Assembly (NCBI RefSeq): GCF_045037415.1
Contig: NZ_CP173438.1
Reading direction: 5' to 3' (one strand)
Source of the DNA: Escherichia coli
Lineage (GTDB): Bacteria > Pseudomonadota > Gammaproteobacteria > Enterobacterales > Enterobacteriaceae
Length of the DNA: 64,000 nt
Shown: positions 13,030-13,487 of the stretch, in pieces
Layout of the letters: each line of letters opens with the position of its first letter
Position numbering within the stretch: the first letter of the stretch is position 1
Position numbers and translations under genes: made by a program
The notes under the pieces: model-generated
Seen by the model: only the letters and a program-made list of their open reading frames with translations
Told to the model about the DNA's origin: nothing
Database searches by the model: none

Positions 13030-13487
13030 CTGTCTCTTATACACAAATCCCCACCCGGGGATTTGTGATGTCTGTCAGTCTGCTTTAGGGGGGACTCTTT
13101 CCATTCGGTAGTTTCCTTCCTCCCCGGCAGCGATTTTTTGAACTTTTTCTTCACCCGTTGATCTTCTCTTATATTTCATTTTCTTCGGGTCTGTTATGGT
13201 ACTTTCTGATTGTTATTCATGGGATAACGAGCAGTTTGGACATGCCCGTCTCGGTGATCCGCGTCGTACACGACGCCTTGTGTCACTGGCCTCTTCTCTC
13301 GCTCAGCATGCAGGTCTTTCTATTGTGAAATCATCCCACTCCACTGCTCAGGTTGAAAGTGCGTACCGCCTGATACGTAACCCGTCTGTGTCCCCGGAAG
13401 CCATTGCCTAAGCCGGATTTACCGCCACTGCAAGGGCATGTGAGGCTCATCCGCTGCTCCTCGCACTGGAAGACACCACCACTAATC
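13030..13487 (+). mobile_element. IS4-family (IS50/Tn5-like) left-end remnant, truncated by an IS66 copy
   Basis: Terminal CTGTCTCTTATACACAAAT resembles the Tn5 outside/mosaic end as recalled; the downstream ORF matches the Tn5 transposase N-terminus. Confidence 0.55.
13196..13411 (+). pseudogene. IS4-family (Tn5 Tnp-like) transposase N-terminal fragment, frameshifted and truncated
   Basis: ...ARLGDPRRTRRLVSLASSLAQHAGLSIVKSSHSTAQVESAYRLIRNPSVSPEAIA* parallels the Tn5 Tnp N-terminus; similarity continues in another frame (LLALEDTT) until about 13487. Confidence 0.6.

What the first reader, a model, noticed from the sequence alone, without database searches (positions are those of the whole stretch)
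13030..13487. Tn5/IS50-like (IS4 family) end remnant
A terminal repeat almost identical to the Tn5 outside end (CTGTCTCTTATACACAAAT, as recalled) is followed by a frameshifted Tn5-Tnp-like N-terminus, cut off by IS66 copy 2. It may flag the former presence of a composite transposon carrying further cargo.
Basis: partly seen in the sequence, partly recalled or inferred. Interest (0 to 1): 0.25.

Follow-up and report, generated by a model that had tools for sequence, protein, structure and literature searches.

The report
Dead ISEc13 (Tn5-like) insertion-sequence stub
This is the broken left third of a known Tn5-like jumping gene (ISEc13) in the leuX genomic island of the pandemic E. coli ST131 clone; it is an ordinary, already annotated piece of genomic debris that can no longer move.

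Summary
Window 13030-13482 is the left 453 bp of ISEc13, a 1550-bp element of the IS4 family, IS50/Tn5 subgroup. It is 97.8% identical to intact copies. Its 19-bp end, CTGTCTCTTATACACAAAT, matches the Tn5 outside end at 17 of 19 positions. The reading frame from 13196 encodes the Tn5-type N-terminal DNA-binding domain (Pfam PF14706, E 2.5e-18).

Two details need correcting. The gene is not frameshifted: it carries an in-frame GAA>TAA stop at 13409-13411. The interrupting element is a 249-bp end fragment of ISEc8 (IS66 family, 13488-13736), not a second copy of the window's ISEc23. That fragment is itself cut off against K-12-like backbone.

The window is E. coli ST131 GI-leuX. NCBI annotation already lists this locus as an IS4/Tn5 transposase pseudogene, and both junctions occur in the same number of complete genomes (450 of 5426).

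No second ISEc13 end or fragment lies within about 86 kb, so the composite-transposon idea has no support.

Verdict: a dead, already known IS remnant of low interest.

Side observation: ISEc13 and relatives with the same end insert into the loops of GC-rich, terminator-like hairpins. The window's left flank fits that pattern.

The parts
13014..13029 (+). Left flank GCGCCCCCCTATCAGG. It looks like the left half of a GC-rich hairpin target: a C6 arm, a TATCA loop and the first GG of the return arm.
Evidence: It fits the flank pattern of 92 independent insertions of ISs with this end, and the reconstructed empty sites of 6 complete copies. The predicted right half is not in the window.
13030..13048 (+). 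19-bp left terminal inverted repeat of ISEc13 (outside-end type). It contains TTATACACA, the stretch that in the Tn5 outside end is the DnaA box.
   Evidence: It fits the IS50-subgroup end consensus CW------Y---CA-A--W- (PMC2266710). The DnaA-box identity comes from Tn5 literature and was not tested here.
13042..13067 (+). Perfect 11-bp-stem hairpin, CACAAATCCCC-ACCC-GGGGATTTGTG, overlapping the end of the repeat.
   Evidence: the 171-nt leader folds at -49.4 kcal/mol, z -3.9. The equivalent hairpin is conserved in all relatives.
13080..13139 (+). Second, imperfect hairpin (13080-13130), then CGA, then T6 (13134-13139). This is a terminator-like element facing into the IS.
   Evidence: for the fold. 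In relatives the first hairpin is followed directly by TTTTTTTGAAC. Terminator function is inferred. The simple consensus scan did not call it.
13196..13411 (+). Codons 1-71 of the ISEc13 transposase (N-terminal DNA-binding domain), ended by a nonsense codon, TAA at 13409-13411 (GAA in other copies).
   Evidence: NCBI annotates it as a pseudogene with an internal stop.
13412..13482 (+). Same frame, codons 73-96. It ends just after the first catalytic Asp (LEDTTT, equivalent to IEDTT in Tn5). This is the last stretch that is certainly ISEc13.
13483..13487 (.). TAATC: five junction bases that belong clearly to neither element. ISEc13 has CATTA here, a 2/5 match.
13488..13736 (-). Terminal 249 bp of ISEc8 (IS66 family, 2442 bp when intact). 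It begins at the inverted repeat GTAAGCG and carries the C-terminal codons of tnpC on the minus strand. It is 99.2% identical to intact ISEc8.
   Evidence: In locus L010 the intact element has an 8-bp target duplication, GGATAAAC, which fixes its terminus.
13724..15112 (.). leuX-proximal island backbone shared with E. coli K-12 (97.2% identity). It overlaps the ISEc8 homology by about 10 bp (AGACTGACCG).

Best explanation
Window 13030-13482 is an inert 5' stub (453 of 1550 bp) of ISEc13, a cut-and-paste DDE insertion sequence of the IS4 family, IS50/Tn5 subgroup. [quoted passage not shown]

Most likely history:
- ISEc13 transposed into a GC-rich hairpin about 300 bp downstream of an IclR-family regulator gene. 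The junction at 13029/13030 looks like an original transposition junction.
- An ISEc8 end then became joined to it inside codon 96-98 of the transposase gene.
- A later deletion removed the rest of ISEc8, the remaining 1.1 kb of ISEc13 with its right end, and whatever lay between them and the K-12-like backbone near leuX.
- Separately, codon 72 mutated from GAA to TAA.

What is left is one transposase-binding end, the leader with its two hairpins, and a 71-codon ORF for the DNA-binding domain. Two of the three catalytic residues, the dimerisation domain and the second end are gone. The stub can therefore neither make transposase nor be transposed. It is a scar that marks the clone.

Shown: identity, boundaries, lesions, distribution and absence of a partner. 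Inferred: the order of events, the hairpin nature of the original target, and the lack of any residual function.
For: - Identity: 97.8% over 453 bp to an intact 1550-bp element. The encoded 96 residues are 93.75% identical to intact transposase P0001. P0001's 90% cluster holds NCBI proteins named 'IS4-like element ISEc13 family transposase', and the annotated intact copy on an E. fergusonii plasmid carries the same label.
- Family: PF14706 E 2.5e-18. Intact ISEc13 transposase aligns end to end with Tn5 transposase (E 2e-82, 42% identity), with the DDE blocks LEDTT / VCDREADI / RWLIEEYHKAWK aligned. NCBIfam transpos_IS4_3 scores 511 bits.
- Left boundary: six copies with unrelated flanks all start at CTGTCTC.
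- Nonsense codon.
- ISEc8 junction and ISEc8 truncation. K-12-like backbone from 13724.
- Host and context: 100% identity to ST131 genomes (JJ1887, EC958 and others). NCBI annotation reads 'IS4/Tn5 family transposase DNA-binding protein; internal stop; missing C-terminus'. GI-leuX is a described island (PMC4134206).
- Fixation: each junction query is covered at >=80% in 450 of 5426 complete genomes, and no sampled genome has the left junction with a longer IS.
- No partner.
- Target pattern supporting an original left junction.
Against: - The five bases 13483-13487 (TAATC) match neither ISEc13 nor ISEc8. The ISEc13/ISEc8 junction is therefore not a clean insertion junction, and its origin is unresolved.
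- No genome with the empty site was found, so the original target hairpin and the target duplication cannot be checked.
- I could not compare directly with the ISfinder ISEc13 reference. The name rests on NCBI labels.
- I could not scan a whole ST131 genome for an orphan right end. Some ST131 chromosomes show two places matching the left 458 bp, and I did not locate the second.
- Expression of the 71-codon ORF was not tested. The consensus scan found no sigma-70 promoter inside the stub.
Confidence: 0.93

Rival explanations
1. The stub is one arm of a former Tn5-style composite transposon (two ISEc13 copies bracketing cargo) that delivered neighbouring genes, for example the IclR / dihydrodipicolinate-synthase-family / UxaA / PdxA / MFS module to its left.
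For: - IS50-subgroup elements do form composite transposons, Tn5 being the example (PMC2266710).
- The stub directly abuts a self-contained metabolic module.
- The right-hand side has been deleted, so a second copy could have been lost.
Against: - No second ISEc13 DNA or protein fragment lies in the window plus a further 22 kb of the island, and there is no inside-end-type terminus in the window.
- JJ1887 and EC958 show a single place for the left end.
- The other side of the module carries a short helix-turn-helix transposase fragment of IS3/IS66-accessory type, not IS4.
- The flank fits an ordinary single-IS insertion into a hairpin.
Confidence: 0.04
2. The ISEc13/ISEc8 junction was made not by simple insertion of ISEc8 into an intact ISEc13 but by an ISEc8-mediated adjacent deletion or inversion, or by illegitimate recombination that joined two previously separate loci.
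For: - Five unassignable bases, TAATC, sit at the junction.
- The other ISEc8 boundary also looks like an illegitimate join, with about 10 bp of shared sequence (AGACTGACCG) against the K-12-like backbone.
- Relatives show IS-mediated rearrangement: flanks are swapped between two copies in Alishewanella (L083 and L084).
Against: - An ISEc8 terminus joined by transposition, whether inter- or intramolecular, should abut unaltered target sequence, so the 5-bp filler fits neither route cleanly.
- No intermediate structure was found among 5426 genomes.
Confidence: 0.3
3. The 71-codon ORF is retained because it makes a small DNA-binding protein, for example one that binds ISEc13/Tn5-type ends and damps incoming copies, or a domesticated regulator.
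For: - The ORF covers the whole Tnp_DNA_bind domain.
- NCBI annotates an analogous 67-residue product in O157 as a protein (WP_001340019.1).
- The stub is 100% conserved in 450 genomes.
Against: - The conservation is explained by clonal descent.
- The stop codon is lineage-specific, and other E. coli copies carry different lesions: a stop at codon 68 plus deletions in O157, and a single frameshift in Nissle. This is the pattern of neutral decay.
- No promoter-like site was found in the stub.
- There is no evidence of expression.
Confidence: 0.03

Closest known systems
ISEc13 (IS4 family, IS50 subgroup; name as used by ISfinder and NCBI PGAP)
   Same: The retained 453 bp are 97.8% identical to intact copies. 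The 19-bp left end, leader hairpins, start codon position (nt 167) and N-terminal protein sequence are the same.
   Different: Only 29% of the element remains. It has a nonsense codon at position 72 and is truncated at codon ~96, with no right end and no target duplication. Intact copies are 1550-1564 bp, encode a 457-residue transposase, and end in AGATCTGATCAAGAGACAG.
IS50 / Tn5
   Same: Same subgroup and architecture. The left end matches the outside end at 17/19, and 18/19 in some ISEc13 copies. The ISEc13 right end is 19/19 identical to the Tn5 inside end. The transposase is homologous over its full length, with the DDE blocks aligned. The N-terminal domain is 53% identical.
   Different: Overall protein identity is only 42%. 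No DNA similarity extends beyond the termini. The leader is about 74 nt longer (ATG at nt 167 against 93). The one flanked ISEc13 copy has an 8-bp duplication, and ISEc13-type elements sit in hairpin loops, whereas Tn5 makes 9-bp duplications with only a weak sequence consensus (Tn5 facts from the literature cited in PMC1525189).
ISPlu9 / ISPpr3 and unnamed Vibrio, Shewanella, Photobacterium and Neiella IS4-family elements
   Same: The first 23 nt (CTGTCTCTTATACACAARTCCCC) are identical, the end-proximal hairpin is the same, and so is the kind of target.
   Different: Transposases are only about 50-54% identical to ISEc13. The elements are shorter (about 1480-1500 bp). Their hairpin is followed directly by a T-run, whereas ISEc13 has about 70 extra nucleotides there.
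ISEc8 (IS66 family)
   Same: The neighbouring 249 bp (13488-13736) are 99.2% identical to the end of ISEc8.
   Different: It is a different family, is not part of the Tn5-like element, and is itself a 10% fragment.

Membership tests
ISEc13 (as a remnant of it) | Near-identity in DNA to an element whose transposase carries the ISEc13 name | tested here: met
   97.8% over 453 bp to L008:56-1605. That element's transposase, P0001, clusters at 90% with NCBI proteins named 'IS4-like element ISEc13 family transposase'. An annotated intact copy was also seen. The ISfinder reference itself was not available.
ISEc13 (as an intact, mobile copy) | Two terminal inverted repeats | tested here: not met
   Only the left end is present. 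There is no inside-end-type terminus in the window even with 3 mismatches allowed, and no other ISEc13 sequence in the window plus a further 22 kb.
ISEc13 (as an intact, mobile copy) | Uninterrupted 457-codon transposase gene | tested here: not met
   TAA at codon 72, and homology ends at codon 96.
IS4 family, IS50 subgroup (De Palmenaer et al. 2008) | Terminal sequence fitting CW------Y---CA-A--W- | tested here: met
   CTGTCTCTTATACACAAAT fits at every specified position (direct reading against Table 1 of PMC2266710).
IS4 family, IS50 subgroup | Tn5-type N-terminal DNA-binding domain | tested here: met
   PF14706 E 2.5e-18, 66 bits against a cut-off of 24. Alignment to Tn5 transposase structures E 9e-21.
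IS4 family, IS50 subgroup | DDE catalytic triad | tested here: not met
   In the stub only the first Asp (LEDTT) survives. The intact parent has all three blocks aligned with Tn5. The family assignment of the stub therefore rests on descent from that parent. The YREK signature was not checked residue by residue.
IS4 family, IS50 subgroup | 8-9 bp target duplication | not testable with these tools
   The right end is deleted here. The parent shows 8 bp (CCTTATAG) in L015, and relatives show 8-9 bp.
IS50 / Tn5 itself | High sequence identity to IS50R | tested here: not met
   42% protein identity. blastn finds only the terminal 17 bp plus short coding patches.
Composite transposon | Two copies of the same IS bracketing cargo | tested here: not met
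   There is a single fragment in the window plus a further 22 kb, and one place in the JJ1887 and EC958 chromosomes for the left end. The opposite side of the adjacent module carries a non-IS4 transposase fragment.

The most novel reading that the evidence does not exclude
The stub preserves half of a hairpin target. ISEc13 and a wide gammaproteobacterial clade of Tn5 relatives share its exact 23-nt end. They appear to insert specifically into the apical loop of GC-rich, terminator-like hairpins, usually with the A-run side next to the left end. They also carry their own hairpin plus T-run just inside that end.

If this structure-directed target choice has not been described, it would be a notable property for close relatives of Tn5, the standard 'near-random' transposase. 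The stated probability combines two judgements. The pattern itself is very likely real (92 distinct flanks, and 6 of 8 reconstructed targets fold as hairpins). Whether it is undescribed is much less certain: I found no description in the held literature but could not consult ISfinder.
Probability: 0.3. Interest if true: 0.35.

Novelty: already known. Interest (0 to 1): 0.06.

Why it matters
For the locus itself, very little. It is a correctly annotated pseudogene of a catalogued insertion sequence, inside a described genomic island of a heavily sequenced clone. It carries no cargo and has no sign of function.

Its practical value is as a clonal marker. The ISEc13/ISEc8 double junction occurs in the same number of complete genomes (450 of 5426). 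It also records how the leuX-proximal end of GI-leuX was assembled by successive IS insertions and deletions.

The only point of wider interest is the side observation on target choice. This Tn5-like clade appears to target terminator-like hairpins, which would be relevant to how Tn5-type transposases select targets and how such ISs avoid harming their hosts.

Tried and rejected
- Chance match of the 19-mer: rejected, and homology continues for 453 bp.
The frame is continuous with a single nonsense codon.
- IS50 itself: rejected.
- A boundary further out than 13030: blast hits from CFT073-type copies extended 7-15 bp upstream. Alignment showed only loose C-run similarity, later explained by the shared hairpin-type target.
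- An ISEc8 terminus extending into 13483-13487: some blast hits started 1-5 bp early. Three copies with different flanks, plus an 8-bp duplication in L010, place the terminus at GTAAGCG.
- Looking for an intact multi-copy ISEc13 host among E. coli genomes by re-querying with the Nissle copy: this returned only identical decayed copies and was uninformative. Intact copies came from the protein search instead.
- The '1.5 kb DDE transposase repeat' in GI-leuX mentioned for EC958 (PMC4134206): it turned out to be ISEcp1 with blaCMY-23, unrelated.
- Rfam scan for an IS-associated RNA over 12500-16000: nothing in the stub.
- Consensus promoter and terminator scan: no promoter or terminator called inside the stub.
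- Search for the predicted right half of the target hairpin in the window: none.
- Literature searches for terminator or hairpin targeting by IS50-subgroup elements: nothing found beyond REP targeting by ISRm22, an IS4-family element. Reznikoff et al. 2004 was not held.
- First attempts with wrong file or coordinate assumptions gave errors and no data.

Full report
**1. The observation**

The string CTGTCTCTTATACACAAAT lies at 13030-13048. It occurs once in the 64-kb window even with three mismatches allowed, against none expected in shuffles.

Compared with the Tn5 ends, it matches:
- the outside end (CTGACTCTTATACACAAGT) at 17/19, differing at positions 4 and 18;
- the mosaic end at 17/19;
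- the inside end at 13/19.

The outside-end and mosaic-end sequences were checked against the oligonucleotide table of PMC3347997.

An ATG at 13196 opens a frame whose product is MVLSDCYSWDNEQFGHARLGDPRRTRRLV... It hits Pfam Tnp_DNA_bind (PF14706, E 2.5e-18). It also aligns to the solved Tn5 transposase, residues 7-96 against Tn5 10-100, E 9e-21.

**2. Two corrections**

The gene is not frameshifted. Translation of 13196-13489 in one frame gives 71 codons, a TAA at 13409-13411, and then AGFTATARACEAHPLLLALEDTTT in the same frame. That stretch still aligns to Tn5 (...LLAIEDTTS). All five other copies aligned (Nissle, O157, SC418, L008, L009) have GAA at that codon. The lesion is a G>T nonsense substitution.

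'IS66 copy 2' is a 249-bp terminal fragment of ISEc8 (13488-13736), 99.2% identical to intact ISEc8. Its terminus is GTAAGCG. This was fixed by three copies with unrelated flanks and by an 8-bp target duplication around a 2442-bp copy. It is only 66-68% identical to the other IS66-family sequences in the window, one of which is the intact ISEc23.

**3. What the element is**

The window is 100% identical here to many E. coli ST131 chromosomes, including JJ1887, EC958, JJ2434 and O25b:H4 strains. In JJ1887 and EC958, NCBI already annotates window 13196-13483 as a pseudogene: 'IS4/Tn5 family transposase DNA-binding protein; internal stop; incomplete; missing C-terminus'. It sits next to 'IS66 family transposase, missing N-terminus'.

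The locus lies about 2.7 kb from tRNA-Leu (leuX; Rfam tRNA at 15748-15829). That places it at the leuX-proximal edge of the GI-leuX island described for ST131 (PMC4134206).

Longer copies of the same IS exist elsewhere in E. coli:
- A 1539-bp copy with one frameshift in Nissle 1917, ATCC 25922 and ABU 83972.
- A 1445-bp copy next to espL2 in O157:H7, carrying its own stop at codon 68 and internal deletions.

A reconstructed transposase retrieved an intact 457-residue protein at 95% identity, P0001. Its 90% cluster has 1389 members, and these include NCBI entries named 'IS4-like element ISEc13 family transposase'.

Three intact copies were recovered: on two short contigs (L008:56-1605, 1550 bp, and L009) and on an E. 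fergusonii plasmid with the ISEc13 label (L015:2798-4361, 1564 bp, 8-bp duplication CCTTATAG).

The window fragment is 97.8% identical to the intact element over 453 bp, and 93.75% identical over 96 codons.

**4. Relation to Tn5**

Intact ISEc13 transposase aligns with Tn5 transposase over its whole length (6-453 against 9-469, E 2e-82). Identity is 42% overall and 53% in the N-terminal domain. The catalytic blocks LEDTT, VCDREADI and RWLIEEYHKAWK are aligned. It also passes NCBIfam transpos_IS4_3 at 511 bits.

The ends fit the IS50-subgroup consensus and the duplication length fits its 8-9 bp range, as given in 'IS4 family goes genomic' (PMC2266710). The intact copies (1550-1564 bp) sit at or just above that subgroup's typical 1350-1550 bp size range.

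The ISEc13 right end, AGATCTGATCAAGAGACAG, is 19/19 identical to the Tn5 inside end.

At the DNA level, however, only the terminal 17 bp and a few short coding patches align to IS50R. The ISEc13 start codon is at nt 167, against nt 93 in IS50. It is a Tn5 relative, not IS50.

**5. Boundaries and the local mosaic**

Six copies with unrelated left flanks all begin at CTGTCTC, so 13030 is the true terminus. ISEc13 homology is certain up to 13482.

The next five bases, TAATC, match neither ISEc13 (CATTA) nor ISEc8. ISEc8 homology runs 13488-13736.

From 13724 to 15112 the sequence is 97.2% identical to the K-12 region next to leuX. That region includes an IS66-like transposase fragment, the phosphoethanolamine-transferase pseudogene and the truncated P4-type integrase. 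The ISEc8 and backbone homologies overlap by about 10 bp (AGACTGACCG).

To the left, about 300 bp of AT-rich spacer follows an IclR-family regulator gene. That gene belongs to a five-gene module: IclR, dihydrodipicolinate-synthase family, UxaA, PdxA and MFS.

**6. Distribution**

The query spanning the left junction (12650-13150) and the query spanning the ISEc13/ISEc8 junction (13440-13900) are each covered at >=80% in 450 of 5426 complete genomes. In the sampled rankings, hits drop straight from full coverage to IS-only coverage. I therefore saw no genome with an empty site, and none with the same left junction and a longer IS. The structure looks fixed in one lineage.

**7. The composite-transposon idea**

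blastn and tblastn with intact ISEc13 against the window plus L005, about 86 kb of the island and its flanks once their overlap is counted, found only this fragment. No inside-end-type terminus is in the window.

JJ1887 and EC958 each show one place for the left end. The transposase fragment on the far side of the five-gene module is a short helix-turn-helix protein of IS3/IS66-accessory type. The 1.5-kb 'DDE transposase' repeat reported in EC958 GI-leuX is ISEcp1 with blaCMY-23.

Nothing supports a composite transposon. It cannot be fully excluded, because the right-hand side has been deleted.

**8. How it works, or rather does not**

A Tn5-type element needs two ends and a transposase with three parts: the N-terminal end-binding domain, the DDE core and the C-terminal dimerisation domain. 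This is established for Tn5 and applied here by homology.

The stub keeps one end, the leader and 71 translatable codons of the end-binding domain. It lacks the second and third catalytic residues, the dimerisation domain and the second end. It can neither make transposase nor be excised or moved.

No sigma-70-like promoter was found inside it. Other E. coli copies carry different inactivating lesions. This is the pattern of neutral decay rather than of a retained function.

The order of the nonsense mutation and the truncation cannot be determined.

**9. Side observation**

The first 23 nt of the stub (with A or G at position 18) occur exactly in 97 stretches of species-representative genomes. 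The genera include Vibrio, Photobacterium, Shewanella, Alishewanella, Neiella, Aliagarivorans, Budvicia, Marinomonas, Aeromonas and Escherichia whittamii.

In 92 distinct left flanks the composition is strongly patterned:
- an A-run at -19 to -15 (up to 75/92 A);
- a GC-rich stretch at -14 to -7;
- an AT-rich stretch at -6 to -4;
- G at -2 (66/92) and C at -1 (61/92).

Of eight copies with both ends, six have a target duplication: four of 8 bp, one of 9 bp and one of 12 bp. For all six, the reconstructed empty site folds into a GC-stem hairpin with the IS in its loop. The ISEc13 plasmid copy is one of them, with target GCCCCCCTTATAGGGGGC. The other two copies have swapped flanks, which indicates an inversion between them.

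All these elements also carry a hairpin overlapping their own end. In most relatives it is followed directly by TTTTTTTGAAC. ISEc13 has about 70 extra nucleotides there, forming a second hairpin before its T6.

The window's left flank, GCGCCCCCCTATCAGG, fits this pattern. That supports reading 13029/13030 as an original transposition junction.

Palindrome (REP) targeting is known for another IS4-family element, ISRm22 (PMC1525189). I found no description of hairpin or terminator targeting for the IS50 subgroup in the held literature, but ISfinder could not be consulted.

**10. Verdict**

This is a dead, already annotated remnant of a catalogued insertion sequence in a well-described island. 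The composite-transposon speculation is unsupported. Interest is low.

Noticed in passing
L015-L112 (species-representative genomes and an E. fergusonii plasmid); window 13014-13029: ISs sharing the exact 23-nt end of this stub insert into the apical loop of GC-rich, terminator-like hairpins. In 92 distinct flanks there is an A-run, a GC arm and an AT loop, with GC next to the IS. Six of 8 complete copies have a duplication (four of 8 bp, one of 9 bp, one of 12 bp) and a foldable reconstructed target. I found no description of this for the IS50 subgroup in the held literature.
   Followed up: partly
L003:4427-4445, L004:5519-5537, L008:1587-1605, L015:4343-4361: The right end of ISEc13 (AGATCTGATCAAGAGACAG) is 19/19 identical to the Tn5 inside end, including both GATC sites. 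The transposases are only 42% identical. The transposase stop codon lies inside the end, as in IS50.
   Followed up: partly
window 14401-14540 (+): Rfam match to group II intron domains D1-D4 (RF02003, 66 bits against a gathering score of 49, E 1.4e-13). It lies in the backbone shared with K-12 and overlaps or abuts an IS66-type transposase fragment (14230-14439, minus strand). This is probably a group II intron remnant.
   Followed up: no
window 13724-13736: The ISEc8 fragment and the K-12-like backbone share about 10 bp (AGACTGACCG) at their junction. This suggests a microhomology-mediated deletion that removed the rest of ISEc8 and everything up to the backbone.
   Followed up: partly
window 13042-13139: The ISEc13 leader has two strong hairpins (171 nt fold at -49.4 kcal/mol, z -3.9). 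Compared with relatives, about 70 nt appear to have been inserted between the ancestral end hairpin and its T-run. This would explain why the start codon is at nt 167 rather than about nt 93 as in IS50.
   Followed up: partly
window 12885-13154 (-): An 89-codon ORF starts inside the IS leader and reads outward across the IS terminus into the flank. Equivalent outward ORFs occur in the Nissle copy and were called as a gene on the metagenomic contig L008 (1-204, minus strand). It is probably spurious, but it is conserved in position.
   Followed up: no
L083 and L084 (Alishewanella jeotgali): Two copies of the related IS have exchanged flanks: the left flank of one pairs with the right flank of the other to make a hairpin target. 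This indicates an inversion by recombination between IS copies.
   Followed up: no
L113:25620-29550 (EC958, about 21-25 kb further into GI-leuX, outside the window): EC958 carries ISEcp1, IS5 and blaCMY-23 inserted in a BCCT transporter gene of GI-leuX. JJ1887 has the intact transporter gene at that position.
   Followed up: no
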